Part shown: positions 4,237-64,000 of the stretch, piece after piece
How positions within the stretch are numbered: position 1 is the first letter of the stretch
How the letters are laid out: the number at the start of each line of letters is the position of its first letter
Assembly: GCA_951406725.2 (NCBI GenBank)
Contig: OX597839.1
Coordinates: forward strand, 26,350,001 to 26,414,000
Source of the DNA: Octopus vulgaris
Lineage: Eukaryota
Length of the DNA: 64,000 bases
Direction of reading: 5' to 3'
Translations under genes and position numbers: made by a program
The notes under the pieces: generated by a model
Databases searched by the model: none
Told to the model about the DNA's origin: nothing
The model's input: only the letters and a program-made list of their open reading frames with translations

Positions 4237-5309
4237 AGGTATGTATGAACGTATGTATGAATGTATGTATGAATGTATGACCAGAGCCTGTCAAACCGTC
4301 CATTTCATGCCAGCATGGAAAACGGACGTTAATTGATGATGATGATGATCGATATATATACACACACACGTATATTGCTGCAAGTTAATCTGGTGAAGGG
4401 TTTTATTGCTTAATTAACATGTAATCACGTATCCACACCCATAAACATAAGTACTCTCTCTCTCCCTCTCCCTCTCTCGTATACACCCACCCCTGCCATA
4501 CAGTATTTGGGAAGATATATAACAACACAATATTTCAGTAAACGGAGTCACATCTACTTTCACTTTCACTATCGACAACGTGAGCCAGAAAGGCAGTGAC
4601 GTAGCTAAAGTGCATGCAGCCTGCGCAGCCTCGAGTTTAGGATCCCAAGGCTATGCGAGGTTGCATAGCAGACCCAGAAGTTCCACCCACAAAAAAGTGT
4701 CCCACGAGGTGGATTGCCCTTCTCGCCACCACCGCTGCCTCAGCTACACTACAGCTAGAACAATATAAAACAAAAGGGAAGTTCAGATAATCTTACTAGT
4801 GTCTGTTACCCATGTAATCTGCAGTTGTGTTATATATATAGACACACACACGAACCCTCACACACATATATACTACTATATTATTTAGATGTTGTTCCCG
4901 TTTACAATAATTTATATTGACCTGTCTGTGAGATGGCTTCATAAGTTACCCATTAGCTGTTGTTTAGCTCCAGCGGAACAGAGATTTCTTAAGAAGGTTC
5001 CAAAGAACTCCTGCCTACCATGAAAAACTACGGGGTTTCAAAAAGTACTTTTGTTTTTATTAAAATGCTATAAAAATTATAATAATCCCTCACCATATCG
5101 CGGGTCACCTATCGTGCACTCAGAACATCACGGATTTTCCTGGCTAATATATGCAAATTTATATCACGGACTCTTCAGTATGTCTGGGTTCCTGCAGCCG
5201 ATAAGTATTTTATGTTTTTGTAGATTTTAATTATTTCCGTGGGAGGTTTTGGAACGTAATACCCATAGTAGTCAAGGGTTTATTGGAAAACTAGATATTC
5301 TAAGAACTT

Positions 5310-5429
5310 GTCCCACTGTGTGGCATCTTGGGCAAGTGTCTTCGGCTATAGCCCCGGGCCGACCAATGCCTTGTGAGTGGATTTGGCAGACGGAAACTGA
5401 AAGAATCCTGTCGTATATATGTATATATG

Positions 5430-5460
<31 letters not shown>

Positions 5461-5650
5461 TTGTGTGTCTGTGTTTGTCCCCCTAGCATTGCTTGACAAC
5501 CGATGCTGGTGTGTTTACGTCCCCGTCACTTAGCGGTTCGGCAAAAGAGACCGATAGAATAAGTACTGGGCTTACAAAGAATAAGTCCCGGGGTCGATTT
5601 GCTCGACTAAAGGCGGTGCTCCAGCATGGCCGCAGTCAACTGACTGAAAA
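5310..5650 (+). mobile_element. SINE family A, 5'-truncated copy
   Basis: Starts at gtcccactgtgtggcatcttgggcaag; same body as the full copies. Confidence 0.8.
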
Positions 5651-6879
5651 AAAGAAAGACTGTTGTTATCGCTAGGCCTAACTCATCGTAAAGCAAATAC
5701 CACCATCAGTGATATCCAGATTACAGTGGAGAAGGCAAAGCCACTGGATTTGGTTAGAAAGGGACGATGTGCAATGGGTAGATGTTGAGTAAAACCTGAA
5801 AACCAGCTGATCTAGCAGGCAGGGTCTCGTTTCAGAGAAAGGGGCCGGTGCGCAAAGATGCCGTTGAGAAGTAAGACCCCCAAACGGCACGCGTTCTCTC
5901 CTGATGACCCCATAAACTTGTAAGGACCTGGTCTGTGCAGTATTTGCATTTGCCAGTTGTTTGCAAAAAATCAAAAATTCTACATATTGTTTTTTTAGAA
6001 CGATCATTTCTTTTTCTTTTTATTATTATTATTTTTTTTTTGTCAAATAAACCCAGGTACCAAATTTACCTGTTTGTCATTTCAAATTTATTATAACTTC
6101 CGATTTAGCGAAGGCAGAGGTATTGTTTTCAGTCGCATTTGTTTGCTTGCCCATGGACAAGATATTTCAAGAACCGCTGGATGGATTTGCATGAAATTTT
6201 CGGGGACGTTTGGCCTCGTGATTGGCACGAACTGATTTTGGGAACAATCTGTTACCGGACAAGGATTCTAGATTATTTTACCATCTTTTTTCCGTAATTT
6301 TTGAGAGCGGTCGGGTTCGTTCTTAATATTCTCACAAGTTTAGCATAACCAGCCCCAGCCCATTCAAAAGTAAATTTGAGTCAAGTACATACAACATTAA
6401 AATAAAAAGCAAATGGAAATCGTAGTTGTGATACCCGTGTCGGTGGTACATAAAAAGTACTGTCCGAACGTGGCCGTTTTCAGCCTCCTCTGGCCCCTGT
6501 GCCGCTGGCACGTAAAAAGCATCCACTGCACACACGGAGTTGTTGGCGTTAGGAAGGGCATCCAGCTGTAGAAACACTGCCAGATCAGATTGGAGCCTGG
6601 TGCAGCCTCCTGGCTTCCCAGACCCCAGTCGAACCGCCCAACCCATGCTAGCACGGAAAACGGACGTTAGACGATGAGGAGGGGGATGATGAAGCATGTT
6701 GTTGACAGTGACTTTGAAGTTTTGGCCAGCTAAGCCATCATCGGGCATCTAATTAGGTCATTTCCTCTAATTACTCTGCAATTTAGGTTTGAATTATAAA
6801 TGCTCCAAAATGACACGAGGCTGTTTGTTTGTATTTCTAATACACACACACACACACACACTATATATATATATTCTTT

Positions 6880-7084
6880 TCTTTACTTTTTTACTTGTAT
6901 CAGTCATTTGACTGCGGCCATGCTGGAGCACCGCCTTTAGTTGAGCAAATCGACCCCAGGACTTATTCTTTGTAAGCCCAGTACTTATTCTATAGGTCTC
7001 TTTTGCCGAACCGCTAAGTTACAGGGATGTAAACACACCAGCATCGGTTGTCAAGCAATGCTGGGGGGACAAACACACACACAT

Positions 7085-7138
<54 letters not shown>

Positions 7139-7290
7139 GATGGGCTTCTTTCAGTTTCTGTCTAACAGATCCACTCACAAGGCTTTGGTTGGCCTGAGGC
7201 TATAGTAGAAGACACTTGCTCAAGGTGCCACGCAGTGGGACTGAACCCAGAACCATGTGGTTGGTAAGCAAGCTACTTACCACACAGCCA
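6880..7290 (-). mobile_element. SINE family A (~400 bp, tRNA-like head, CORE-like CCTTGGGCAAG, internal (TA)n(TG)n)
   Basis: Reverse complement of the 15972 copy. Confidence 0.85.
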
Positions 7291-7317
7291 TATATATATA
7301 TAAATATATATATATAT

Positions 7318-7515
7318 AGTTAATCCAAACATGAAAACACAAAGAGAAAACACAACATGAGGACGTGGAACAAGTATAGTATTATTGGACGCTCAGGAAA
7401 GAAGGAGGGTTTAATGTTTCGAGCGGAGCTCTTTGTCGGAAACATAGGAAAAGGAAAGATCCAAAGAAGGGAAGACGGAGGAAAAAAAAATCGCCAACGG
7501 TACACACGCGGTCGG
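7318..7515 (-). mobile_element. Penelope-like terminal-repeat fragment with decayed hammerhead motif (7411-7443)
   Basis: Minus strand TTT-CCGACAA-AGAGC-TCC-GCTC-GAAACATT-AAA keeps the stems and GAAAC, but the CTGANGA box is mutated. Confidence 0.45.
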
Positions 7516-9012
7516 TTGCATATATATTGGGTTGCAACATTCGCAGGCTAAAATGATGTCAAGTGCACTGTGACCAGTGATGTATAATGACATCTGATAG
7601 TCTGGTTGATACCATGATACTGTAATACAGTTATATATATTTTCTGTGTGTGTGTGTGTGTGTTTGTGTTTGTCCCCCACCACTGACTGACAACCAGTGT
7701 TGCTTTGTTTATATCCCCATAACTTAGCAATTTGACAAAAGGGAACAATACATCGAATATCAGGCTTTAAAAAGAAAAAAAAATACCAGTGTGGACTTTT
7801 TCACGTAAAAACCCTTCAATGCAGTGCCCCAGCATGGCCACAGCCCAATGACTAAATCAAGTAAAACATTATAAGACTCATCACAGTCACATGGCTTCAT
7901 TCAGAATCAAAATGGATTCTGATTCATAAAAAGAAACTCTTTCTCTTCACTGTTTCTTTTCTCTAAATTTTTCCCAGTCATTTGCTCGGATGAACTTTCT
8001 GCTCTGATAACCCCTGCCAAGGCCTTTCAATGTGTCACCTGCTTTTCTTCCCAACTACAGTGTTTCTCTGTTAAACTTCCAGTTAGTCATCAGAACTCTG
8101 ATTCCAAAAGCTTTTCACCTCAAACTGCTCACCTCCAGAACTCATTGTCACCGTTTTGCTTTCCTCTTGTCTCTGTTCTTGAGCAAGACACTTTATTTCA
8201 CATTGCTCCAGTTCACTCAGCTGTAGAAATGAGTTGCGACATCACAGGTGCCAAGCTGTATCGGCTCCTTTGCTTTTCTCTTGGATAACATCAGTGGTAA
8301 GGAGAGGAGAGGCTGATATGCATGGGCGACTGCTGGTCATCCATAAACAACCTTGCCCAGACTTGTGCCTCAGAGGGTAACTTTCTAGGTGCAATCCCAT
8401 GGTCAGTGTCGTGACCGAAGGGCGTCTCTCTGTCTCTGGTAATCAATCCTGTAAGGTTTCAGCCAATTGACATCTTTTGAATTTGTCTGGCCCCTTCTTT
8501 CTTTTCTTTAACCCTTTGGGGTTTCAACTGGTCATGTCAAGCCAAAATAGTCTTCCTGTTTTATGTCCAAGCCGGCCAGATCTGGCCTCTCACACCTACC
8601 CTACAATGTCATTCTAAAAGTAAACAGTGACATTGTCAAAATCTCAGAGTCACAAGATGATGTACAGGGTGGGGCAAAGAGGATGGATGCTTTTGAAATG
8701 GCTATTACTCAGTCCCAGGAGGAGGGAAATATGTCTGACAGGTACCGTTTGGTCTGTGGTGTCTTAGCACTAGTCTTTCTTTTCAGGTGAAGCCATGGTG
8801 ACAAACACAAACACAGATATGTATATATATATTATATAAATACTTATATACACTACAGGCTTCTTCCAGTTTCCATCTACCAAATCCAGTCACAAGTCTT
8901 TGGTCAGCCTAAGGCTATAGTAGAAGACACTCGCCCAAGCTGCCATGCAGTGGGACTGAACCCAGAACTATGTGGTTGAGAAGCAAGCTACTTACCACAC
9001 ATCCACACCTGC

Positions 9013-9066
<54 letters not shown>

Positions 9067-9881
9067 TCATCATCATCATCATCATCGTTGTATATATATA
9101 TATATACACGACTCCTCTTTCAGTCTCTGTCTACCAAATCCACTCACAAGGCTTTGGTTGGTCCAGGGCTGGAAGAGACTTGCCCAAGGAGTTGTGCAGT
9201 GGGACTGAACCCGGAACCATGTGTTAGGGAAGCAATTTCTCTCCACGGAGCCACAAGCATGACATATTTGACAGCTGTGAAGGCACACGGCTTAGTGGTT
9301 AGAGTATTTGGCTTACAAGCACAAGATCGTGAGTTCAATTCCTGGCAGTGCCTTGTGTCCTTGAGCAAGAAGCTTTATTTCACTTTATAGCTCCAGTCCA
9401 CTCAGCTGGCACGAATGTGTTGTACCAGTAATTCCAAAGGGGTCCAGCCTTGTTACATTCTGTGTCACGCTGAACCCCCCTGAGAACTACATTAAGGGTA
9501 TGCATGTCTGTGGAGTACTCAGCCACTTGCATGCTAATTTCATGAGCGGGTTGTTCTATTGGTTGGATCAAGTGGAACAGTTATCGTCATCACCGACGGA
9601 GAGCGAGATTATTTGACGACTCAGTGTATGTCACGTGGCACTCTGTCGTGCCTCAGTTTATCCAACTGGAAGAAGAGAAAAAACAGGGTCCACTCCTATG
9701 TCACGGATGAGTGATTAAGGAGACTTGTCTAATTGTAACGAAAGGATGGAACAGAAAAGCAAAAAATAAAATTCTCTAACAACAAAAAGCAATAAAAAAA
9801 AAACTAGTGGAAAACAACATTGGAATAAAAAAACAATGAAAATACAAAAACAAATAAAGAAAATGAAAATAAATGAACATT

Positions 9882-9884
<3 letters not shown>

Positions 9885-9915
<31 letters not shown>

Positions 9916-9946
9916 GGCATCACAAGCTGTAAAACCTGTTCTGAGG

Positions 9947-9977
<31 letters not shown>

Positions 9978-10067
9978 CTATGTGTATACATATATTTGTG
10001 TGTGCACACACAAATATATATATATATATACATGTATGCGTGCATATATATGGATATGTATATATAC

Positions 10068-10113
<46 letters not shown>

Positions 10114-10128
10114 ATTTGTATATATACA

Positions 10129-10171
<43 letters not shown>

Positions 10172-10264
10172 ATATGCATATATACAAGTGTGTGTGTGTG
10201 TATATATATATATGGATATGTATATATATGTGGTATATATATATATATGGATATGTATATATAC

Positions 10265-10332
<68 letters not shown>

Positions 10333-10335
10333 ATG
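9885..10335. repeat. Compound (TA)n/(TG)n microsatellite array
   Basis: Repeated GGATATG(TA)nCA(TG)n blocks; accounts for several spurious YIYI ORFs. Confidence 0.95.
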
Positions 10336-11508
10336 ATGTATAGTGTAACCAATCCTATGTACAATTGTTGCCATTGGCAACAATTGTTGTACATAGGAGC
10401 AAGGTATGGGGATGTGTGGTGTGGGTGGCCATGGGTGATGAGTTGCGCAAGAAACGTTTCATAGATGATGATGATGATGATGATGGTGAGGAGGAGGAGA
10501 AGAATAAAGCTTTCTGAAATAGTTTATCTCCACTATTGTTTAACCCCTGGTCAGTCCTGTTTAAGTTAATCAAAACTCTAAGGCATCCCAACCATGACCA
10601 TCCAAATTTTTCTTTTTCAATCAATAAATTTTAATTATCTAATGTGTCTGTTCTATTTTTTTTTGTTTTGTTTTAGTCACTAGGGTCGCATTTGAGGTAG
10701 GTTTAGTTGCTATTTCTAGCTGATTGAGTAACCACCTAGAGGCTCCTTCGTTGGTGCTCGTGTCCTTGACACACAACACAATCAGTGGACGACATCGGCT
10801 CATATTTCTTTCCTTTCCTAATGCAGTCAGATATAAGTTGCAAAGGTGTGTGGCCCAGTGGTTAGGGTGTTGTACTCACAACCACAAGATCATCATCATC
10901 ATTTAATGTCCGCTTTCCATGCTAGCATAGGTTGGACGATTTGATTGAGGACTGGCGAACCAGACTCCATTCTGATCTGGCAGAGTTTCTACAGCTGGAT
11001 GCCCTTCCTAACGCCAACCACTCCGAGAGTGTAGTGGGTGCTTTTACGTGCCGCTGGCACGAGGGCCAGTGTGGTGGTACTGGCAACGGCCATGCTCAAA
11101 TGGTGCTTTTTATGTGCCACCTGCACAGGAGCCGATCCAGCGACGACCTTGCAAAGATCGTAGTTTCAATTCCCAAACTGGGTGGTGCTTTGTTTCCTCA
11201 AGTCAAACCCTTCATTTCACATTAGCCTGCAATCTGTGTACCCGTACGGATAATGTTGATCAGATGGAGGGCATGACCTGAGGTTCAGCCCAAACATTTG
11301 ATCCCTATAAACAAATCCTTGTTATTTACAACATGAACAGCATACATGTGGGATAATGAATGAATGAAGCATTAATTCCATGGGAAGGCTGCTCCCTTGA
11401 TCAGATCAAATGGAATGCTAGACATCATAACCAACGGAGTCATTCATCCATTTGGTGTTCATTGTGCCTCGTGGCACTTGAGGTGACAGCAAAATCATTC
11501 CACCTTAA

Positions 11509-11729
11509 CCCTTTAGCATTTAAACTGGCCATATCCGGCCAAAAGTATTCTGTATGTTTTATGTCCAAACTGGCCAGATCTGGTCTCTCACACCAACCCT
11601 ACAATATCGTTTTAAAAATTAACTGCTACCTCATCAAAATCTCTCAGCTACAAGATAAGGCAGGATTAGTTCAAAACAATGTGGATAAAAAAGGATTAAT
11701 TTTGGCAGAATAATGCGAACACTAAAGGG
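11509..11729. mobile_element. piggyBac-like TTAA MITE
   Basis: TTAA|CCCTTTAG...CTAAAGGG|TTAA. Confidence 0.8.
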
Positions 11730-11733
11730 TTAA

Positions 11734-11963
11734 GGCAGCGAGCTGGCAGAAACGTTAGCACACCGGGCAAAATGCGTTGCCGTATTTCATCTGCCGTTAG
11801 GTTCTGAGTTCAAATTCCGCCGAGGTTGACTTTGCCGTTCATCCTTTCGGGGTTGATAAATTAAGTGCCAGTTACGCACTGGGGTCGATGTATTCGACTT
11901 AATCCCTTTGTCTGTCCTTGTTTGTCCCCTCTATGTTTAGCCCATTGTGGGCAATAAAGAAAT
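11734..11963 (+). mobile_element. SINE family C, full length
   Basis: Collinear with the 3231 copy; abuts the TTAA of a MITE. Confidence 0.8.
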
Positions 11964-11964
11964 A

Positions 11965-12415
11965 AGATCATTCCACCTTCTAACACTGAAAGCGCCGTTG
12001 ACAGCTTGTTCTATTGTTAACCCTCAGCTTTTAAGATCTTTTGTTATTGTCCCCAGCCAGGTTTCCTTCGGTCGCCCACGTCTTCTTGTACCTTGTGGAA
12101 CCCATTGCAAAGTGATCCTGACAACTGAGTTTGGTTTATAGTGACAAACTTGACCCAGCCATTTCCATCTCCTGGCTTCAATAGTTTTCACGTTAGCCTT
12201 GCTGTGTTGTTGGCTAATCGAGATCATATTCGGCCAGTGGACCTGCAAAAGTTTTCCTAAACATTTTCCTAAACCCCTCCAATTCCTTTTCAATACTTTT
12301 GGTTGTTTCCCAGCATTTGGATCCACAGAGGAGGGTGCTAGGTATGTTACTTTGGTAAAATCGTATTTTGGTGCTCAATGGAGTGCCAGGTTTTACATGC
12401 TTTGAGTTCAAATCC
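11965..12415 (-). mobile_element. Degraded RTE-clade LINE, ORF2 C-terminal fragment
   Basis: Frameshifted peptides LSTKIRFYQSNIPSTLLCGSKCW and RRWKWLGQV...LQWVPQGTRRRGRPKETW. Confidence 0.75.
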
Positions 12416-12449
12416 CACTAATGTCCGCTTCGTGGAGGCACATGGCTTC

Positions 12450-12576
12450 ACCATCATTGTTCGACCGTGGTCGAGACAATGGAATTTACTATGTTATGCC
12501 AGGCCTCACGGTGCATCATAGCATTACGGAGGTCCTGTTGCTGGATGTCTGTATCCCTGGAGATTACATCAGGGTA
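12450..12576 (-). mobile_element. RTE-like LINE 3' fragment inserted into a SINE head
   Basis: Matches the 35575 family (YPDVISRDT...TTVEQ*). Host TGGCTT|AGTGGTTAGGG is split with GGCTT duplicated. Confidence 0.72.
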
Positions 12577-13047
12577 GGCTTAGTGGTTAGGGTGTTGGAC
12601 TCATGATCATAAGATTGTGGTTTCAATTCCTGGACTGGGCGGATGCATTGTCTTCTTGAGCAAAACACTTTACTGGGTTGGCCAAAATATCCGATTAGCT
12701 TTTGTGGAACACTTAAACTTCAAGCACTCCAATAAGCAACCAACTTCAGTCTGCCCTTTGGGCATCTGCACTCATTAGATGCTTGATGCTTCAGACCATT
12801 TCAGATGTGAACAAAGAGAGAGAGAGAGGTTTAAATGACTGAAATACCAACTCAGGTGTTACAAGTTCAAATCTGATGCTTGATGTTTGTGGTCCTTTGG
12901 GGTTTCTCACTCAAGTTTCCACAGTTTTACACTGCTTTACTTAACCGATTAGCACCCATGGTCCTTTTTTTTTAGGACCAGAAGGATAATCCATCAGATT
13001 TCTGAAACACCTGGATTTTTCTGAGATATCTTTAATTAGTCATCAAG

Positions 13048-13351
13048 ACTATTGTTCCTCCTTCTCGAGCCATGCCTGGCTCATAAGGGCCGGTTTCCTG
13101 GTTTCCTTGGTGTATAGGTTCCCAACCTGGACAGGACGCCGGTCCGTCACAGGTGAGCTGCAAGATGCAGGAGGAAAGAGTGAGAGAAAGTTGTGGCGAA
13201 AGAGTCAGCAGAAGTTTGCCATTACCTTCTGCCGGAGCCACGTGGAGCTTAGGTGTTTCACTCATAAACACACAAATCACCCGGTCTGTGATTCGAACCC
13301 ATGATCCTTCGACTGCGAGTTCGCTGCTCTAACCACTAGGCCATGTGCCTC
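13048..13351 (-). mobile_element. SINE related to family B
   Basis: Minus strand head GAGGCACATGGCCTAGTGGTTAGAGCAGCG...GGTTCGAATC; shares the ...ccacaactttctctcactct core. Confidence 0.72.
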
Positions 13352-13430
13352 TACTATCAAGACTGTAGTGTCTTTCAAATATTGTAATAACATTTTTTTA
13401 ATATATTTAGTATCAAATAAAGTTGTATAA

Positions 13431-13708
13431 AAAACAATTGCAGCGTGGAAGGTGTTTGTAAGCCATTTAAGAAACACACAAAAGCCGTTCGATTCACTTC
13501 AACATTTAAGTTTAATTTGTCAAAATATTTTTGTCACTTTAAGACCGTGACCTGTTCACTGACACACGGATTTTTGTCAGTGAACAGGTCGCAGTCTCAA
13601 AGTGACGAAAATATTTTGACAAATTAAACTTAAATGTTGAAGTGAATCGAATGGCTTTTGTGTGTTTCTTAAATGGCTTACAAACACCTTCCACGCTGCA
13701 ATTGTTTT
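13431..13708. repeat. 278-bp near-perfect palindrome, probably Penelope-derived
   Basis: Arms of ~134 bp (AAAACAATTGCAGCGTGGAAGG... / ...CCTTCCACGCTGCAATTGTTTT) around a ~10-nt spacer. Confidence 0.9.
13575..13621 (+). ncRNA. Candidate minimal type I hammerhead ribozyme with G3-C8 core variant
   Basis: Stem I TGTCA/TGACA, core GTGAACA, stem II GTCGC/GTGAC, GAAA, palindromic stem III AATATT. Confidence 0.55.
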
Positions 13709-14911
13709 CGTTTCAGCACACAATCTCAGATCAAATCACTTGCTATGCGAGTACATCTCCTTGTATAAAAAAGATTTTTGGTAATAAATTAAATAAAAAA
13801 AATTTGGGGACTGATGGCTTAATTAATCAATGGTAGTATAGAAAATAGGGACCAAGCATTTATGGGAATGCTTTGTGGGACATAAACTTACCTGGATGAA
13901 GCAACAGGAGACCAACACCTTCTAATGAAGGTGTGTTGGCCCTTTAGACAGCAACCTACCTGAGACCAACTCTTGATTCTATGACAAAAAAATTCTTCCC
14001 TTAAAATGGTAGAAATCAAGCATTTTACCAAAATTATCAGGTTATGTTCCCAACACCAGATTAATGAAGACAGAATTATTTTGATAAATTCTTTATTATT
14101 TTCAACACAAACTGAAACAAAAGTAGTTTATTTCAAGGGAAATGGGGGGTAAAGAAGGGGTTAATTCTTTTGATAGCAATCCACCTGAGACTGATCCTTG
14201 TTCTATGAGACAAACACCCTATTTTAAAGGGATCTTAATGAAAACCTTCCATCAAACTTTCTTGTTATGTTCCAACCACCAGATTAATGAAGACAGAATT
14301 ATTTCATTAAATTCTTAATTATTTTCAAAATTAATTGAAACAAAGTCCATGCATTTCAACAAAAATATGGTAACAAAAGGGTTAAAGTTATCTAAATTAA
14401 AACTTCCCACTAAAATATCATGTTAATTTTATGTTCCAAATATCAGCTTAATGAAGACAAAAATTACTCCAGCATGGAGAATTTGATAGCGTTCAAGAAG
14501 CGTTTTCTTTTCAAATATCATGAAAAAAACCCCAAAAAACATCTCATATGTGTAATTACTTAATATTCATGAATATACAGAACTGAAATAAGGGTGCGTC
14601 TAACATACCCGTGCGTCTTTTTAGGCCATCAAATACGGTAATTTATCGCTGGATTGGATTGCGAGGTTTTCACCCATTTGCCATACAAAGGGAGATAACT
14701 CCACGCAGCATATTGCACACACGCACAACAACCGTTTCCGTTCAAGCAATCTTCTACTCTGGCCACAGGCTGACCAAAGCCTTGGGAGTGGATTTGTTTG
14801 ACTAAAGGCCGTGCTCCAGCATGACCACAGTCAAATGACTGAAACAAGTAAACGAAAAGAATAGCAGGAAACTGGAAGCCCATAGAGTAAGCATGTGCAT
14901 ATATCTAGAGC

Positions 14912-15251
14912 GTGGAGGCGCAATGGCCCAGTGGTTAGGGCAGCGGACTCGCGGTTTCGATTCCCAGACCGGGCGTTGTGAGTGTTTATTGAGCGAAAAC
15001 ACCTAAAAAGCTCCACGAGGCTCCGGCAGGGGATGGTGGTGATCCCTGCTGTACTCTTTCACCACAACTTTCTCTCACTCTTACTTCCTGTTTCTGTTGT
15101 ACCTGTATTTCAAGGGGCCAGCCTTGTCACTCTTTGAATATCCCCGAGAACTACGTTAAGGGTGCACGTGTCTGTGGAGTGCTCAGCCACTTACACATTA
15201 ATTTCACGGATCAACCAGAACCCTCATCGTCGTAACCGACGGAGTGCTTCC
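14912..15251 (+). mobile_element. SINE family B (tRNA-like head GGAGGCGCAATGGCCCAGTGGTTAGGG)
   Basis: A-box TGGCCCAGTGG and B-box GTTTCGATTCC. Flanked by direct repeat ATATCTAGAG at 14901-14910 and 15254-15263. Confidence 0.82.
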
Positions 15252-15263
15252 ACATATCTAGAG

Positions 15264-15465
15264 CAGTGCTTTTCAAACTTTTTGCTGGAGCGGAACCCCA
15301 AGGAAACATTCCACTGGCTCGGGGAACCCCTGTGCAATAATTTAATAGTCTTATGCACACATATCTGCACAGGAGACTTAAAAATTACTGCTGATTTTAG
15401 CAGTTTTGTAACTTCTTGCAGAAACCCTGGACTGTACTGGCGGAACCCTGGTTGAAAAACCACTG
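15264..15465. mobile_element. hAT (Charlie-like) MITE with 8-bp TSD ATCTAGAG
   Basis: TSD at 15256-15263 and 15466-15473; CAGTG...CACTG termini. Confidence 0.87.
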
Positions 15466-15971
15466 ATCTAGAGTAATCCCTCGGGTACCGCAGGTGTTAC
15501 GTTCACCCCTCACAAAGTAGAAACAGGGCTGTACTGTATTTTAATAATTTGTATATATTTATTTTATTATAAATACAAAACAACACCACGGTAAGATTAA
15601 AATAATACACCGTGATATGTTCAGGGATTACTGTGTGTGTATGTAAGAGTGTTAAAAAGCACCATCCGAACGTGGCCGACGGCAGCGCCGCCTTGACTGG
15701 CTTCTGTGCCGATGGCACATAAAAAGTACCAACCGATCGTGGCCGATGCCAGCCTCGTCTGGCACCTGTGCCAGTGGCACATAAAAAGCACCCACTACAC
15801 TCACGGAGTGGTTGGCGTTAGGAAGGGCATCCAGCCGTAGAAACATTGCCAGATCAGACTGGAGCCTGGTGCAGCCTCCTGGCTTCCCAGACCCTGGTCG
15901 AACCGTCCAACCCGTGCTAGCATGGAAAGCGGACGTTAAACGACGACGACGATGATATATATATATATATA

Positions 15972-16362
15972 GGCGCAGGAGTGGCTGTGTGGTAAGTAGC
16001 TTGCTAACCAACCACATGGTTCCGGGTTCAGTCCCACTGCGTGGCACCTTGGGCAAGTGTCTTCTACTATAGCCTCGGGCCGACCAAAGCCTTCTAAGTG
16101 GATTTGGTAGACGGAAACTGAAAGAAGCCTGTCGTATATATGTATATATATGTGTGTATGTTTGTGTGTCTGTGTTTGTTCCCCTAGCATTGCTTGACAA
16201 CCGATGCTGGTGTGTTTACGTCCCCGTCACTTAGCGGTTTGGCAAAAGAAACCGATAGAATAAGTACTGGGCTTACAACGAATAAGTTCCGGGGTCGATT
16301 TGCTCGACTAAAGGCGGTGCTCCAGCATGGCCGCAGTCAAATGACGGAAACAAATAAAGAGA
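15972..16362 (+). mobile_element. SINE family A, full length (resembles described octopus tRNA-derived SINEs)
   Basis: Head GGCGCAGGAGTGGCTGTGTGGT (A-box-like) and GGTTCAGTCCC (B-box-like). Tail AAGGCGGTGCTCCAGCATGGCCGCAGTCAAATGAC. More than 15 related copies in the window. Confidence 0.88.
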
Positions 16363-16954
16363 GAAAAAAAGAGAGTAATCCCTTGACTATTGCAGGTGTT
16401 ACTTTCCAAACCTCGCCCCGCGATGGGTGAAAATCAGTATTGTACTGTATAAATTTTTTATTTTCATAATTTGTATATATTTATTTTATCCTAAATGCAA
16501 AACAACACCATAGAAGAATAATAAGCCACGATATGGCAAAGGGTTACTGTCCCTCGATAAAGGAGTTTACGTGTGTGTTCGGAGTAAACTTGTGAGTCGA
16601 GGTATTTAGTACCGGATGACTTATCTCCCTTGCAAACTACCTTTTGGTGGAACTGGACAGATACGAAGACTTACACGTCTACCTGGGAGGACATTCAACT
16701 GAAGATCAGCATTTTAGCAACGGTCAATCCGACATTAAGTGAGCATAAATTGCAGTATATATAACTGGCAGAATTGTTAGCATGAAGGGCGAAATGCTTA
16801 AGGACATTGCGTCCGTCCTTATGTTCTGAGTTCAAATTCTGACTAAGTCAACTTTGTCTTTCATCCTTTTGAGGTCGATAAAATAAGTACCAGTTGTGTA
16901 CTGGGGACCAGTGTAATCGATAATGATGATGATGATGATGGTAAGAAAAATGAC

Positions 16955-30749: not shown

Positions 30750-31027
30750 TGTGGAGGCGCAATGGCCCAGTGGTTAGGGCAGCGGACTTGCGGTTGTAGG
30801 ATCGCGGTTTTGATTCCCAGACCGGGCCTTGTGAGTGTTTATTGAGCGAAAACACCTAAAAGCTCCACAAGGCTCCGGCATGGGGTGGTGATCCCTGCCG
30901 TACTCTTTCACCACAACTTTCTCTCACTCTTTCTTCTGTTGGCCTGCTCGCTTAGCCAGCGGGGTGGCGTCATTCAAAGGCTAAAACAATGCAAAGTGCA
31001 TTGTGACCAGCGATGTGTAACAACATC
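30750..31027 (+). mobile_element. SINE family B variant with a different 3' tail
   Basis: Same head and body to ...ctttctctcactct, then a different tail (ggcctgctcgcttagccagcggggtggcg). Confidence 0.78.
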
Positions 31028-34192: not shown

Positions 34193-34776
34193 TGTGTGTG
34201 TGTGTGTGTGTGTGAGAGAGAAAGTGAGAGTGAGAGAGTGAGTGTGAGTGCAAGAGAGAGAGAGAGTGTTTGAATGAAAGAGAGAGTGTTTGAGTGAGAG
34301 AGAAAGTGTTCGAGTGAGAGAGAAAGAGTGTTTGAGTGAGAGAGAGAAAGAGTATTTGAGGGAGAGAGAGAGAAAGAGTGTTTGAGGGAGAGAGAAAGAG
34401 TGTTTGAGTGAGAGATAGAGACAGTGTTTGAGAGAGAGAGAGAGAGAGTGAGCAAGAAGATAGAGAGGGGAAAAAAAGAGCAAGAGCAGATGTAAGAGGT
34501 ACTAATGAAGATTTGTAGTTTTTTGTCCCCCCACCCCCAGAATATTGTGAGATGGGTCATGAATGAACAAAACAGAAATGAGCAAAAGAGGAACGAAAAT
34601 GGAAAGAAAAAAAAAGAAAAAAATGAAAATGAAAAGGAAAAAAAAAAAAAAGGGAAAAAAATGGCAAGATGATCGGTTAGAAACAAACACATACATACGA
34701 AAATATATACATGTACATAGAAACATATTTACACATACAATACACAAACATATGCACATACATACATACATACAAA

Positions 34777-34807
<31 letters not shown>

Positions 34808-35362
34808 AAGTGAGAGTGAGAGAGTGAGTGTGAGTGCAAGAGAGAGAGAGAGTGTTTGAATGAAGGAGAGAGTGTTTGAGTGAGAGAGAAAGTGTTCGAG
34901 TGAGAGAGAAAGAGTGTTTGAGTGAGAGAGAGAAAGAGTATTTGAGGGAGAGAGAGAGAAAGAGTGTTTGAGGGAGAGAGAAAGAGTGTTTGAGTGAGAG
35001 ATAGAGACAGTGTTTGAGAGAGAGAGAGTATGAGCAAGAAGATAGAGAGGGGAAAAAAAAGAGCAAGAGCAGATGTAAGAGGTACTAATGAAGATTTGTA
35101 GTTTTTTGTCCCCCCCACCCCCAGAATATTGTGAGATGGGTCATGAATGAACAAAACAGAAATGAGCAAAAGAGGAACGAAAATGGAAAGAAAAAAAAAA
35201 AAGAAAAAAATGAAAATGAAAAGGAAAAAAAAAAAAAGGGAAAAAAATGGCAAGATGATCGGTTAGAAACAAACACATACATACGAAAATATATACATGT
35301 ACATAGAAACATATTTACACATACAATACACAAACATATGCACATACATACATACATACAAA
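34193..35362. repeat. Near-identical tandem duplication of a ~585-bp low-complexity unit
   Basis: 34193-34776 and 34777-35362 share unique text (e.g. GAGCAGATGTAAGAGGTACTAATGAAG) and differ mostly in homopolymer or dinucleotide lengths. Confidence 0.9.
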
Positions 35363-35574
35363 TACAAATCAAAATAATGACTAGGAATGAAATTTTTTAA
35401 AAAATCGTAAAAAGTACATGTTAATAAAAACAAAAAAAACCTCTGACCCTAAAGTATTTCTATTATCAAATTCTAATACAGTTGTCTGAAACTGGGGCCC
35501 AAATGACCCTTGGGGGTCCATATTAGACTTGGTTGTTACGCCATGTGCCCATGGGCATATGGCGTAGTGGTTAA

Positions 35575-45606: not shown

Positions 45607-45990
45607 TGTGGAGGCGCAATGGCCCAGTGGTTAGGGCAGCGGACTCGCAGTCGTAGGATCGCGGTTTCGATTCCCAGACTGGGCATTGTGAGTGTTTTTA
45701 GAGCGAAAACACCTAAAGCTCCACGAGGCTCCGGCAGAGGATGGTGGTGATACCTGCTGTACTCTTTCACCACAACTTTCTCTCACTCTTACTTCCTGTT
45801 TCTGTTGTACCTGTATTTCAAAGGGCCGGCCTTGTCACTCTCCCTGTCACACTGAATATCCCCGAGAACTACGTTAAGGGTGCACGTGTCTGTGGAGTGC
45901 TCAGCCACTTACACGTTAATTTCACGAGCAGGCTGTTCCGTTGATCGGATCAACCGGAACCCTCGTCGTCGTAACCAACGGAGTGCTTCC
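45607..45990 (+). mobile_element. SINE family B, full length
   Basis: Collinear with the 14912 copy. Confidence 0.83.
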
Positions 45991-47247: not shown

Positions 47248-47394
47248 GGGGTCTGGGAAGCCAGGGGCTGCACCAGGCTCCAGTCTGATCTGGCGGTGTT
47301 TCTACAGCTGGATGCCCTTCCTAACGCCAACCAGCTGTAGAAACACTGCCAGATCAGATTCGAGCCTGGTGCAGCCCCTGGCTTCCCAGACCCC
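47248..47394. repeat. 64-bp-arm hairpin formed by local inversion of a family D repeat
   Basis: Arms 47248-47311 and 47331-47394, 3 differences by eye, 19-nt loop. Confidence 0.9.
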
Positions 47395-48038: not shown

Positions 48039-48433
48039 GGCGCAGGAGTGGCTGTGTGGTAAGTAGCTTGCTAACAAACCACATGGTTCCGGGTTCAGTC
48101 CCACTGTGTGGCATCTTGGCCAAGTGTCTTCTGCTATAGCCCTGGGCCGACCAATGCCTTGTGAGTGGATTTGGTAGACGGAAACTGAAAGAAGCCTGTC
48201 GTATATATATATATATATATATATGTGTGTTTGTGTGTCTGTATTAATCCCCCTAGCATTGATTGACAACCGATGCTGGTGTGTTTACGTCCCCATTACT
48301 TAGCGGTTCGGCAAAAGAGACCGATAGAATAAGTACTGGGCTTACAAAAGAATAAGTCCCGGGGTCGATTTGCTTGACAAAAGGCGGTGCTCCAGCATGG
48401 CCGCAGTCAAATGACTGAAACAAGTAAAAGAGT
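48039..48433 (+). mobile_element. SINE family A
   Basis: Full copy. Confidence 0.87.
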
Positions 48434-48955
48434 AATTCCAACTGTATGATTGAACTAAATCTGCAGGGTTTTGTTCCCCACTAAATATTCTAAAAAAAAA
48501 AAAAAAAGGGTTTCTTTCATTAATCTTTATTCTACATACAGAATTCCTGACAGTATATAGTTATATTCTTTTATTCTGTTACCTGTTTCAGCCATTTGAC
48601 TGCGGCCATGCTGGAGCACCACCTTTAGTTGAACTAATCGAACCCAGGACTTATTCTTTGTAAGCCTAGTATTTATTCTATTGGTATCTTTCGCCGAACT
48701 GCTAAGTTACAGGAACGTAAATACACCAACATCAGTATTCCGTCGTCTCTGTGGGACTTGCCCAAACAGCGTACCCCGCTGACATTACTGTGTCAGTCCA
48801 CTATTGATCAGCAGTGGACCAGCCCACTTCTCACCCCGGGGGGCGTCTGCCACAACAGAATGTGAAGAAACATAAATAGACTGAAGTATTTTCTTTCAAC
48901 ACTCTACACTCTCTGCTATTATGTCGACATAACACTACATCATAACGCTATATAA

Positions 48956-50104: not shown

Positions 50105-50522
50105 GCGGCGAGCTGGCAGAAACGTTAGCACGTCGGGCGAAATGCTTTGCAGTATTTCGTCTGCCGTTACGTTCTGAGTTCAAATTCCGCCGAGGTCGAC
50201 TTTACCTTTCCTTTCGGTGCCGATAAATTAAGTACCAGTTACGCACTGGGGTCGATGTAATTGACTTAATACCTATGTCTGTCCTTGTTTGTCCCCTCTG
50301 TGTTTAGCCCCTTGTGGGTAATAAAGAAATAGGTATTTCGTCTGATGTTACGTTCTGAGTTCAAATTCCGCCGAGGTCGACTTTACCTTTCATCCTTTCG
50401 GGGTCGATAAATTAAGTACCAGTTACGCACTGGGGTCGATGTAATTGACTTAATACCTATGTCTGTCCTTGTTTGTCCCCTCTATGTTTAGCCCCTTGTG
50501 GGTAGTAAAGAAATAGGTATTT
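50105..50522 (+). mobile_element. SINE family C with tandem duplication of its 3' ~185 bp
   Basis: Segment gtatttcgtctg...aaagaaatag occurs twice head-to-tail. Confidence 0.82.
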
Positions 50523-51159
50523 CTGCTTCAACAACTCAATATTGGATCTATTTCAAATGGAATGGAAAATAGGTCAGTTTGAAGACATTGATGTCCCCAA
50601 GTGACAAAAGCCAAGTTTGAAGGGAATGGTAGACGCTTCCTTTGAATTCTAGACAGAGGCAAATGGGAAATAACACTTACTGACCAAAGACAAAAAAAAA
50701 AAAAAGCTGTTACATGGTGTTATTGTATTTCATTTTTTCTCTCTATAAATTTGAAAATGTTTTCCTCTTCGTAGGATAGAAAGAAAAGCACAGAATAACT
50801 AGAAGGGGAACAATAATTGAATGAAAAAATACATAAAAACCATGGCTTTATAAATGTAAGAAAAAAAGAAAATGATTTAAACACGCAAATTAAAGTTTCA
50901 AAATTGAATGGCATTCATTTTCCAACCACAAATATTCCATTCTTTTTTCTCCTTGTTTGACAACAGTCCACATCCAATCTGATTGAGATACTTGTCCAAG
51001 ACATTAATTCATTTTACGGCTACAGATTCTAGTTATTTGATCAGGTAACTCTATGTTCTGATTTCAAAACCTCCCAAGGTTGATTCGATCGTTTGTGGAC
51101 GAGAGTAAATCATTTTAAAAAGGGTCGAGTTATCTGAAAAAAAAGCCTAGCATATAACT

Positions 51160-51748
51160 AAATCCCTGGAGAAGGACATCATGCTCGGAATGGTCAGTGG
51201 CAAGAGAGGAAGAGGCCGACCAAGAACCCGCTGGTTTGACACCATCAAGAGTGATACCGGAATGGACATAGCCAATCTGAAAGAAGCGGCCCAGGATAGA
51301 ACTGACTGGAGGACACTGATCCAACGAGTGACCGAGAGTCGACTTCGACTGAGCGGATAGATATATATATATATACGGAATGGTCAGTGGCAAGAGAGGA
51401 AGAGGCCGATCAAGAACCCGCTGGTTTGACACCATCAAGAGTGATACCGGAATGGACATAGCCAATCTGAAAGAAGCGGCCCAGGATAGAACTGACTGGA
51501 GGACACTGATCCAACAAGTGACCGAGAGTCAACTTTGACTGAGCGGATAGATATATATATATACGGAATGGTCAGTGGCAAGAGAGGAAGAGGTCGACCA
51601 AGAACCCGCTGGTTTGACACCATCAAGAGTGATACCGGAATGGACATAGCCAATCTGAAAGAAGCGGCCCAGGATAGAACTGACTGGAGGACACTGATCC
51701 AACGAGTGACTGAGAGTCGACTTCGACTGAGCAGATAGATAGATAGAT
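51160..51748 (+). mobile_element. Three head-to-tail 3' ends of a BovB-like RTE LINE
   Basis: SLEKDIMLGMVSGKRGRGRPRTRWFD...AAQDRTDWRTLI..VTESRLRL resembles the BovB ORF end. Period ~188 bp, each unit ending in GATA/(TA)n. Confidence 0.85.
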
Positions 51749-52939
51749 AACTAAAGAAAGGTGTTATATAGTAATGTGATTTGAATATTGGGCTCGTAAA
51801 TCCAGGGTTTCTTTCCTTCCTAGACTAGGTGGTGCACGGAGCCCTTAACTAAAGCACTTTATTTCACACTGCTCCAATCTTCACTGAAAGTGAGTACTAG
51901 CAACAGCTGGGAGTTAACCCTGTGATGGACTAATGTCACGTCCAGGGGGAAATCTTGTACATGTAATCTGCCAAGAAAACAGGACACGCACTAACCCAGT
52001 GGACATATAAGGCTCAAGACATTAACTGGTATCTTTATTGACATTATAGGGATGATAGACAAAGTCCTTCCCTGGCGAAACCTGAACTTTCCTCCAGCCA
52101 ATGTTTCTACCCTGGGCAACACAGAACCTTAACTGAAAAAGCATCGTTCTGCTACTGTGTATTCAGCAGTTGGACTTCATCATCATCATCATCATTATTA
52201 TCATCATTTAACGTCTGATTTCCATGCATGAAAGTGAGTAGGATGGTTGGCAGGAGCTGGCCAGACAGAAGATTACCCCAGGTTACTATGTCTGTTTTGA
52301 CATGGCTTTTACAGCTGGATACCTTTCCTAAAACCAACCCACCCTGCAAAGTGGACTGAGAGCTTTTTACATGGCAACAGCACAAGTGAGGACACTTTTG
52401 GCACGGTTTCAACAGCTGGTTGTCCTTCCAAATGACAACCACTTTAGTGTGGACTGGATTTAATCCAAAAGATTTTCAAAATCTCATGGATAAAAACAAA
52501 TATTGTATTTATTTGTGCATAAGTCAAACCTTTTTATTCTTGATTTTAACTGAAAAAAACTGGGGTGCAACTTACACACAGAGCACAGCTGATATCAAGT
52601 TTGAATATAAAGGGGAAAGGAATTTGCCCCAATTAACTTTGAATTAAAGGATGCAACTTATACAGGAGTAAATACAATATTGTCATGGTCCCTGTTTTAA
52701 GATTCACTTTTCCATGCTCACAGGGGTTGGATGGAATTTGTGAAGGTGGAGTTTCTATGGATGGATGCCCTTCCTGTTGCCAACCAATGTAATGCCTGCC
52801 CGTGAACGGATATGTTTTTAGGGAAGATTGGAAACAAAGGGTACCATCTGCACGATGGTGACATTTGCATCTACCATGCAATGTCAAGGCAAGGTGATAC
52901 TAACATACAAGTATGTGTGTGTATGTATATATATATGTG

Positions 52940-63278: not shown

Positions 63279-64000
63279 CTGGAAAAGAAAAAAAGAAAAT
63301 AAATAAATGAATAAAACAATTCTATAAACAGGAGTAGAATTCTACAAATGGTTTTTCTTTTTATTACAAAATAATAATTTCAGTTTTTACTTCTTACAAA
63401 ATAATGATTTCTTCCCCAAAGAAGGATTGAAACTATAAAGAATTTTCTGGTTCGGTGCTGGTATCACATAAAAAGCACCCAGTACGCTTAGTAAAATGGG
63501 TGGCATTAGGAAGGGCATCCAGCTGTAGAAACCATGCCAGACAATGGACCGTGGTGTGAACCCCAGCCATACCAGCTCCTGTCAAACAGTACAACCTGTG
63601 TCATCACAGAAAAAGGACATTTGACCACAACAATGATGATGTGGTTAATCTTGGGAGGTTAAGAGATGCAGTTATTACTGCAAGGTTTCTAGTCTGCGAT
63701 GCCCAGATGATTTTGCTGAAATGGTATTCATCTATACTTCATTAGCCCCATGGGCTAATAACAATAATGAGTGTTTCTAATTTAGACACAATTACAGCTA
63801 TTTTGATGAGAAAGTTAGCCAATTACAACAATCTCTGTACTTTGAAAAGGCGAAGAGCAAAGTTAACCATGGCAGGATTTGAACTCAGAATGTAAAGTGC
63901 TGTAACTAAATACCACAAGGTATTTTGCCTGATGTTCTAACAATTCTGTGAATCCACTGCCAGAATAATAATAATAATTCTTTCTAATATAGGGGCAAGG

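What the first reader, a model, noticed from the sequence alone, without database searches (positions are those of the whole stretch)
13431..13708. Palindromic element carrying hammerhead-like motifs with a G3-C8 swap of the catalytic core
Seen: the right arm reads TGTCA-GTGAACA-G-GTCGC-agtctcaaa-GTGAC-GAAA-ATATTT-TGACA. That is the topology of a Penelope minimal hammerhead, but CUGANGA is GUGAACA. The left arm has the same GTGAACA on the minus strand, with the G of GAAA lost by an apparent CpG transition. Known: C3 and G8 form a tertiary Watson-Crick pair in hammerheads and the reciprocal swap can retain some activity; Penelope minimal hammerheads use palindromic stem III to dimerise. Inference: a repeat family with a compensatory non-canonical core that CUGANGA-based searches would miss.
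Basis: partly seen in the sequence, partly recalled or inferred. Interest (0 to 1): 0.8.

Follow-up and report, generated by a model that had tools for sequence, protein, structure and literature searches.

The report
Swapped-core hammerhead in Penelope retroelement end
This palindrome is the cut-short end piece of an abundant Penelope-type jumping gene, and it carries a hammerhead-shaped RNA motif in which two paired core letters have traded places; the motif likely still cuts itself weakly in intact elements (untested), but this particular copy is predicted to be silenced by its own mirror image.

Summary
Observation confirmed: 134-bp arms (5 mismatches), minimal type I hammerhead layout with GUGAACA for CUGANGA, left arm lacking G12. 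The feature is larger than reported: 13435-13760, an inverted short arm plus a long arm with a 52-56-nt tail, between 12-bp direct repeats. The last 88 nt are the first 29 codons of an ORF whose relatives are full-length Penelope-like RT/GIY-YIG proteins, so the motif sits where these elements keep their hammerhead. Thousands of contigs per run match; stem II is Watson-Crick in the majority, the 3' half of the core shows no listed variant, loop II varies. Fixation of G3/C8 could not be measured (the tool is blind there): one further G3/C8 contig and one G3/G8 contig were seen. The palindrome is not a ribozyme dimer: any read-through RNA folds into a 134-bp hairpin that abolishes the fold. U3-A8 is a known natural variant and engineered C3G/G8C partly rescues a Penelope hammerhead; natural G3-C8 was not found in nine searches, but Lunse 2017 was unavailable. 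This scan already noted the same kind of motif on other pieces of this genome and in other genomes. Verdict: new variant of a known kind; cleavage untested.

The parts
13423..13434 (+). Left copy of a 12-bp direct repeat, candidate target-site duplication (last 4 A's also pair as the end of the left arm)
   Evidence: control 155 of 20000 random and 50 of 770 AT-rich position pairs give such a repeat
13435..13564 (-). Inverted, 5'-truncated copy of the element's terminal repeat (short arm, no tail)
13518..13564 (-). Left-arm hammerhead motif, G3/C8 core, G12 changed to A at 13532 (predicted dead)
13431..13466 (-). First 12 codons of the element ORF on the left arm
   Evidence: 12 of 12 identical to P0002
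13565..13574 (+). 10-nt spacer: element sequence upstream of stem I, present on the long arm only; U-rich
   Evidence: family contigs align from 13565-13573
13575..13621 (+). Minimal type I hammerhead motif with G3 (13580) and C8 (13585); stem II 13588-13592/13602-13606; GAAA 13607-13610; palindromic stem III 13610-13615; predicted cut after U17 at 13616
13673..13760 (+). First 29 codons of a Penelope-like ORF (RT plus C-terminal GIY-YIG in full-length relatives)
13705..13760 (+). Tail: 52-56-nt extension present on one arm only, between the family's two 3' ends (about 13702-13708 and 13760)
   Evidence: depth steps and loose ends
13761..13772 (+). Right copy of the 12-bp direct repeat, abutting the family's 3' end

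Best explanation
The stretch 13435-13760 is a heavily 5'-truncated insertion of a Penelope-like retroelement (an inverted short arm plus a tailed long arm), and the motif in it is the element's minimal hammerhead with the tertiary 3-8 pair reversed to G3-C8, which likely still self-cleaves slowly after U17 in transcripts of intact tandem elements, probably as a dimer or with help from the element's protein. Shown: the insertion shape, two family 3' ends, the start of the ORF 52 nt behind the motif, homology of that ORF to RT/GIY-YIG proteins, the hammerhead layout, a Watson-Crick stem II in most family contigs. Inferred: the two arms were made by reverse transcription from two start points on element RNA (as shown in vitro for the anole element PAc); the G3-C8 pair forms; U17 rather than C17 avoids a G3-C17 trap; the swap was kept by selection. 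Predicted for this copy: silent, because the arms are head to head, so read-through RNA from either strand carries the antisense arm first and folds into a 134-bp hairpin; the left arm has also lost G12.
For: Insertion shape as described for PLEs: inverted 5'-truncated copy and a tail at one end (PMC8557442 passages; PMC4209133). Family depth falls from 380,914 to 2,657 at 13760/13761 in run X1 and steps down over 13698-13718; loose ends at 13702 and 13759-13760; opposite-strand joints at several different points. 13673-13759 is 26 of 29 residues identical to the start of Octopus protein model P0002; P0002 25-223 aligns to full-length P0006 (31%, E 8e-26); 83 long homologs of the overlapping P0003, 44 of 83 with all six RT/linker/GIY-YIG motifs, GIY-YIG behind RT in 44 of 44. 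Motif alone folds stems I and II with pair probabilities 0.88-0.94. Family: C at 13603 in 87-98% of depth makes stem II fully Watson-Crick; A13619G (10-19%) is compatible with a G.U in stem I; no variant of 4% or more listed at 13607-13618 in 4 of 4 runs; non-CpG variants at 5 of 9 loop II positions against 0 of 8 in the stem II 3' strand and GAA (p 0.03). Both arms carry G3 and C8, so the swap predates the insertion. Engineered C3G/G8C partly restores the PLE hammerhead of PAc, single mutants are dead (PMC11167929). My arithmetic, no call: if two of 11 core bases changed at random, the chance that they are 3 and 8 and still pair is about 1 in 165.
Against: No cleavage data. G3/C8 frequency in the family is unmeasured: searches list nothing within about 30 letters of an aligned end; direct sightings outside this locus are one G3/C8 contig (table 5c) and one G3/G8 contig (table 5c). 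G3 is predicted to pair with U17 and extend stem I (G3 unpaired with probability 0.16), the analogue of the inhibitory C3-G17 trap (PMC3884650). The stem III homoduplex is only -0.2 kcal/mol. The fold z-scores are modest (-1.9, -1.65). At the 4% threshold loop against stem/core gives p 0.08. PAc hammerhead mutants insert normally in vitro, and no RNA ends were found at its cut site, so selection for cleavage is not established even for canonical cores. No single DNA record holding both motif and RT gene was obtained; the link runs through predicted proteins, one of them a chimeric gene model (P0002). The tail is longer than the published 30-40 bp. The 1-in-165 figure ignores how many decayed PLE families were available to be noticed.
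Confidence: 0.6

Rival explanations
1. Same Penelope-like element, but the motif is a vestigial or purely structural hammerhead: the swap was fixed by drift in one successful master element, cleavage is negligible, and the stems persist as part of the RNA that the element protein binds, or simply by recent amplification.
For: Hammerhead activity is dispensable for PAc insertion in vitro; Naiad and most Chlamys PLEs spread without a canonical hammerhead (PMC8557442); minimal PLE hammerheads cleave poorly even with a canonical core; predicted G3.U17 trap and very weak stem III duplex; a one-master expansion fixes any sequence.
Against: Only the two bases that pair with each other changed, to a pair known to rescue activity; subfamily-level variation is concentrated in loop II.
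Confidence: 0.27
2. The swap is driven by splicing: G3 completes a CAG behind a U-rich tract (and C8 completes a second CAG), so the terminal-repeat intron could end inside the hammerhead, spliced mRNA would lack the ribozyme, and C8 or G3 is the compensating change.
For: Sequence shows a U-tract then CAG ending at 13580 and a second CAG ending at 13587. In D. virilis Penelope the intron ends at the 5' end of helix I (PMC4209133; intron in PMC2377424).
Against: No loose end at 13581 or 13588 on the upstream side among the rows shown for the two RNA-guess runs (80 rows not shown, contigs only). Family loose ends show another CAG just upstream of 13565. A U-rich flank is general in minimal PLE hammerheads.
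Confidence: 0.07
3. A non-autonomous fold-back element derived from the PLE end, in which the hairpin as a whole is the mobile or functional unit (MITE-like or a source of hairpin small RNA) and the hammerhead look is inherited baggage or chance.
For: Near-perfect 134-bp hairpin, -219 kcal/mol; flanking direct repeat.
Against: The arms are unequal, the unit ends 52-56 nt beyond the palindrome at a fixed family end, and strand-switch points differ between copies; the sequence is the start of a PLE ORF; 0 descriptor hits in 300 shuffles.
Confidence: 0.06

Closest known systems
Minimal type I hammerheads of metazoan Penelope-like elements (Cervera and de la Pena 2014, PMC4209133; main text parts 1-2 of 4, supplement file 2 parts 1-2 of 3)
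   Same: U-rich flank, short helix I, extra nucleotide after A9, G10.1-C11.1, GAAA, palindromic helix III, U17 (24 of 56 listed motifs, my count), position in the pLTR, pairs of motifs on opposite strands.
   Different: Core G3-C8; the 56 listed motifs have C3-G8 (53), U3-A8 (2) or U3-G8 (1), none G3-C8 (my count; their descriptors required these cores). Extra nucleotide is G, consensus H (G in 1 of 56).
U3-A8 natural core covariation (Perreault et al. 2011, PMC3088659, section 8; S. mansoni PLEs in PMC4209133)
   Same: Compensatory change of the tertiary 3-8 pair in nature.
   Different: U3-A8 is two transitions through a U.G wobble; G3-C8 needs two transversions through a non-pairing intermediate.
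PAc, Poseidon element of Anolis carolinensis (Frangieh et al. 2024, PMC11167929, parts 1-2 of 4)
   Same: Hammerhead at the ORF start; two reverse-transcription start points inside the ORF that define the tail; C3G/G8C double mutant partly active.
   Different: There the swap is engineered; the ORF starts inside the hammerhead, here 52 nt behind it; relatives here have a Cx2-5CxxC linker that Poseidon lacks.
Neptune/Nematis-type EN+ PLEs (Craig et al. 2021, PMC8557442, passages and supplement term searches)
   Same: RT followed by Cx2-5CxxC linker and C-terminal GIY-YIG in relatives; inverted truncated copies and tail.
   Different: Clade not resolved (no tree against references); tail 52-56 nt against 30-40; this copy is not in a (TA)n tract.
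Metazoan non-LTR retrozymes (PMC7229834 passages; bioRxiv 10.64898/2026.07.22.740005 part 1 of 5)
   Same: Short type-I-hammerhead repeat tied to PLEs.
   Different: No tandem units here; minimal rather than canonical hammerhead; contains the start of the PLE ORF.

Membership tests
EN+ Penelope-like element (C-terminal GIY-YIG) | Single ORF with RT and C-terminal GIY-YIG endonuclease | tested here: met
   Met through homologs, not in this copy: the window holds 29 codons only; chain P0002/P0003 to 83 long proteins, 44 with all motifs in order; Pfam RVT_1 in 3 of 15 and GIY-YIG in 1 of 15, all under the curated cut-off
EN+ Penelope-like element (C-terminal GIY-YIG) | Inverted, variably 5'-truncated copy next to the pLTR | tested here: met
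   opposite-strand joints at several points in family contigs
EN+ Penelope-like element (C-terminal GIY-YIG) | Tail at one end, two fixed 3' ends | tested here: met
   ends near 13702-13708 and at 13759-13760; 52-56 nt, longer than the published 30-40
EN+ Penelope-like element (C-terminal GIY-YIG) | Target-site duplication in AT-rich DNA | tested here: inconclusive
   12-bp repeat abuts the family end, but 50 of 770 AT-rich controls give one; empty site not seen
EN+ Penelope-like element (C-terminal GIY-YIG) | Retained intron in the pLTR | tested here: inconclusive
   upstream part absent from this copy; no junction in the rows shown
EN+ Penelope-like element (C-terminal GIY-YIG) | Placement in a PLE clade by RT phylogeny | not tested
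   no reference set on hand; Neptune/Nematis type by linker motif only
Minimal type I PLE hammerhead | Helix I, helix II with G10.1-C11.1, extra nucleotide, GAAA, palindromic helix III, NUH | tested here: met
   right arm; extra nucleotide is G rather than H; left arm fails at G12
Minimal type I PLE hammerhead | Core box CUGANGA (or UUGANAA) | tested here: not met
   GUGAACA; the 3-8 pair stays complementary
Minimal type I PLE hammerhead | Position in the pLTR, sense to and next to the ORF start | tested here: met
   motif ends 52 nt before the ATG at 13673, same strand
Minimal type I PLE hammerhead | Family-wide conservation and covariation of stems and core | tested here: inconclusive
   3' half visible and conserved, 5' half including positions 3 and 8 in the blind zone; variants cannot be phased
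Minimal type I PLE hammerhead | Self-cleavage as dimer or with protein | not testable with these tools
   needs in vitro assay or raw reads with RNA ends
Non-LTR retrozyme | Tandem non-coding units of about 170-400 nt each with a hammerhead | tested here: not met
   no tandem array at the locus; carries the PLE ORF start
MITE / fold-back DNA element | Symmetric terminal inverted repeats that mark both ends, same structure in all copies (recalled definition) | tested here: not met
   right end lies 52-56 nt outside the palindrome; centres vary

The most novel reading that the evidence does not exclude
The first natural, catalytically active G3-C8 hammerhead: a reversed core pair that arose through a dead intermediate, was fixed in a protein-coding Penelope-like lineage with thousands of copies, and came with a matching cleavage-site base (U17, since C17 would trap G3). 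That would be in-genome evidence that PLE hammerheads are kept for their chemistry, and would mean CUGANGA-based surveys miss whole retroelement families.
Probability: 0.35. Interest if true: 0.65.

Novelty: new variant of a known kind. Interest (0 to 1): 0.45.

Why it matters
Whether PLE hammerheads do anything in vivo is open: they cleave poorly in vitro and are dispensable for PAc insertion in vitro. A natural G3-C8 core in a high-copy family is a ready-made test, since the pair only matters for the active conformation: if it is fixed and cleaves, selection acts on catalysis. It would also widen the natural hammerhead consensus and search descriptors. The element and the palindrome are ordinary PLE features, the swap is known to work partly in engineered ribozymes, and this scan has already noted the motif several times, so the gain is a refinement, not a new class.

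Tried and rejected
No whole genome is held, so copies could not be aligned. No second copy in the window. Pattern scans: metagenome contigs gave 2 matches, both chance hits inside bacterial coding sequence; viral contigs 0; GTDB genomes 0; related-loci searches with the PLE protein alignment found none. I first read the lack of variant rows at 13580 and 13585 as fixation and withdrew it: the first row is 13593 in both, the CpG at 13590-13591 never appears, and run X20 lists 3 of its 6 differences. Expression: contigs in two RNA-guess runs (377 and 118) and one contig in one RNA run cannot be told from DNA; not used. Summed depth is no copy number; not used as one. Rfam: nothing at gathering level in the window; only generic hairpin miRNA models below threshold over the palindrome, no hammerhead family at E up to 10 on the right arm. 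Eight long window ORFs have no Pfam match; no RT remnant of this family elsewhere in the window. PDB sequence search with P0006 found nothing. Atlas: P0001 no useful hit; P0003 hits unnamed eukaryotic clusters, part DUF8422. Rejected: the palindrome as an intramolecular ribozyme dimer (stem I and II pair probabilities 0.0 in the full hairpin); the G-C / G.U / A-U series at 13591:13603 as covariation, because both bases are in CpG dinucleotides and deamination alone gives it. Searches of earlier findings by sequence, near place and relatives were empty.

Full report
Observation. The inverted repeat is real: arms 13431-13564 and 13575-13708, 96% complementary, 10-nt spacer, five mismatches, the longest inverted repeat with arms within 600 bases of each other in the window, apart from a low-identity AT microsatellite. 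The left arm has the same core on the minus strand, with G12 changed to A at a CpG. A strict descriptor with positions 3 and 8 free finds this one site in the window and none in 300 dinucleotide shuffles; it was written after seeing the motif, so it shows rarity, not function. Folded alone, the motif forms stems I and II with pair probabilities 0.88-0.94, z about -1.7 to -1.9.

The element is larger than the palindrome. No genome was held, so I used assembled contigs of public runs. Of 24 runs listed, 23 hold part of 13565-13760 and 19 hold half or more of the sampled words. In four runs laid on 13565-13772, 4,885 to 16,590 contigs matched each; summed depth falls from 380,914 to 2,657 at 13760/13761 in X1, with the same cliff in all four, and steps down over 13698-13718; loose ends cluster at 13759-13760 (4 of 4 runs) and at 13702 (shown for 2 of 4). 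So the family has two 3' ends 52-56 nt apart; the left arm uses the inner one and the right arm the outer one. Contigs switch strand at several different points, so inverted copies with variable centres are common. A 12-bp direct repeat lies at 13423-13434 and 13761-13772; such a repeat occurs in 155 of 20,000 random and 50 of 770 AT-rich control pairs with a looser search box, so it is modest evidence of a target-site duplication. An inverted 5'-truncated copy and a one-sided tail are the described marks of Penelope-like insertions (PMC8557442, passages), and the tail equals the distance between two reverse-transcription start points in the anole element PAc (PMC11167929, parts 1-2 of 4).

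Link to a Penelope ORF. 13673-13765 reads as 31 codons from an ATG. Against 1.84 billion representatives it gave one hit, P0001 (E 1.2e-4), labelled Octopus bimaculoides uncharacterized protein. Its homologs are three more Octopus models. P0002 starts with the same peptide (26 of 29 identical) and runs on for about 220 residues before a methyltransferase part that marks it as a chimeric gene model; P0004 and P0003 overlap it. P0003 residues 110-382 found 83 proteins of 680-1204 aa (best E 2e-66). With motif patterns of my own (partly recalled, partly read from alignment A2), 44 of 83 carry DKS/DKG, RT motifs A, B and C, a Cx2-5CxxC linker and a GIY-YIG motif, and the endonuclease follows the RT in 44 of 44. 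Pfam gave RVT_1 in 3 of 15 scanned and GIY-YIG in 1 of 15, all below the curated cut-off. P0002 25-223 aligns directly with full-length P0006 (31%, E 8e-26). This order with that linker is the Neptune/Nematis type; I built no tree. The host is therefore probably an octopus (inference from 4 of 4 close protein labels). No DNA record with motif and RT together was obtained. The motif ends 52 nt before the ATG on the same strand, the place where PLEs carry their hammerhead, which makes it the positional homolog whatever its activity.

Family variation. Percentages are of summed contig depth, not of copies. At 13603 C makes up 87-98% in seven runs, so stem II is five Watson-Crick pairs if its 5' strand is as in the right arm; 13593 is G in 86-93%; A13619G (10-19%) would give a G.U in stem I. 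No variant of 4% or more is listed at 13607-13618 in 4 of 4 runs, which covers GAAA, stem III and U17. At the 1% threshold non-CpG variants fall on 5 of 9 loop II positions and 0 of 8 positions of the stem II 3' strand and GAA (p 0.03); at the 4% threshold 3 of 9 against 1 of 20 (p 0.08). The tables are blind within about 30 letters of an aligned end: the first row is 13593 in both calls, and X20 lists 3 of its 6 differences. Positions 3 and 8 are therefore unmeasured. Direct sightings: both arms here; one contig with G3/C8 (table 5c); one with G3/G8 (table 5c); none with C3/G8. One contig spans 13572-13640 with three differences only (X11 record 3), which fits G3/C8 better than a reverted core, since two differences are expected at 13593 and 13603. 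Unexplained: C13606T is 4-21% but its CpG partner G12 is not listed even at 1%, while other CpG G-to-A changes run at about 2-7%; this may be selection on G12 or an effect of the tool's filter, and I do not rely on it.

Mechanism. Shown: shape, ends, ORF start, layout. From the literature: C3 and G8 pair in the active hammerhead (PMC3884650, passages); G8C is rescued in part by C3G (PMC8495972, one passage); in PAc the single mutants are dead, the double mutant partly active, cleavage needs the element protein, and cleavage is not needed for insertion in vitro; minimal PLE hammerheads cleave weakly and as dimers (PMC4209133; PMC6765202, passages). Inferred: in tandem transcripts of intact elements the G3-C8 motif cuts slowly after U17. 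For this: only the two core bases that pair have changed and they still pair (about 1 in 165 by my arithmetic, before allowing for how many families could have been noticed). Against: G3 is predicted to pair with U17 (unpaired probability 0.16) and the stem III homoduplex is -0.2 kcal/mol. A G3-C8 core was reported more active with G17 than with C17 (data not shown in PMC3884650), so position 17 matters; U17 avoids the strong trap but is common anyway (24 of 56). This copy is predicted silent: the arms are head to head, read-through from either strand folds into a hairpin of -216 to -219 kcal/mol, and hammerhead pair probabilities on the plus strand are 0.0. The palindrome is thus not a dimer device.

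Comparison and novelty. The element is an ordinary EN+ PLE remnant. The motif meets the published minimal-hammerhead consensus except in the core box and the extra nucleotide. Of 56 motifs listed in the supplement of PMC4209133 (file 2, parts 1-2 of 3; file 1 could not be searched), 53 have C3-G8, 2 U3-A8, 1 U3-G8 and none G3-C8 by my count, with the caveat that their descriptors fixed the core. Perreault 2011 (PMC3088659, passages and section 8; supplements not read) names U3-A8 as the natural covariation. Nine full-text searches showed no natural G3-C8. Lunse, Weinberg and Breaker 2017, the large survey of PLE hammerhead variants, and Przybilski and Hammann 2007 were not held (titles seen in reference lists only), and bioRxiv supplements are closed; any of these may already hold an example. 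Also seen: PMC7229834 (passages), PMC2377424 (passages), PMC2920678 (passages), bioRxiv 10.64898/2026.07.22.740005 (part 1 of 5 and passages). Earlier notes of this scan describe a G3-C8 hammerhead in a Penelope-type repeat on at least four other pieces of this genome and in other genomes; they agree with my reading but are unchecked, and their statements on fixation and sister families were not tested here.

Verdict. Real feature; new variant of a known kind; interest 0.45. Most likely (0.6) a weakly active reversed-pair hammerhead of a high-copy Penelope-like family, silent in this copy; main rival (0.27) a vestigial fold.

Noticed in passing
window 60190-63321 (-): 1043-aa open frame without Pfam match; looks like a large exon of an NCoR/SMRT-type corepressor (two I/LxxII-type boxes; label recalled, not tested).
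   Followed up: partly
window 13591 and 13603; left arm 13548 and 13536: Stem II pair reads G-C in the family majority, G.U in the right arm and A-U in the left arm; both bases are in CpG dinucleotides, so deamination mimics covariation.
   Followed up: yes
window 13606-13607: C-to-T is 4-21% of family depth but G-to-A at G12 is not listed at 1%, unlike other CpG sites; selection or tool filter.
   Followed up: partly
window 13598, 13603 and their left-arm partners: Both arms share the minority T at 13603, but differ at 13598 by two alleles that are both common in the family; the arms may come from two RNA templates or one later mutation.
   Followed up: no
window 13565: The long arm begins just where family loose-end sequence shows a CAG upstream; possible splice acceptor or chance truncation point.
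   Followed up: partly
window 13168-13344, 14923-15090, 30762-30936, 45619-45798: Four copies (75-81% alike) of a short interspersed repeat; two flank the element in opposite orientation.
   Followed up: partly
window 13942-14462: Degenerate direct repeat with a period of about 223 bp, three partial copies.
   Followed up: no
window 47248-47394 and 48269-48736: Two more fold-back arrangements (72-nt arms, 3-nt spacer; 80-89-nt arms) made of other repeats; no hammerhead descriptor hit.
   Followed up: partly
window 51186-51749, 50152-50523, 34204-35366: Tandem arrays: 188 bp x 3 (95%), 184 bp x 2 (95%), and an approximately 586-bp duplicated microsatellite-rich unit.
   Followed up: no
P0002: Public Octopus gene model fuses the start of this PLE ORF to host methyltransferase exons; probably an annotation chimera.
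   Followed up: partly
PMC4209133 supplement, S. mansoni family 3: The one listed motif with G17 has a U3-A8 core, which fits an interplay of positions 3 and 17.
   Followed up: no
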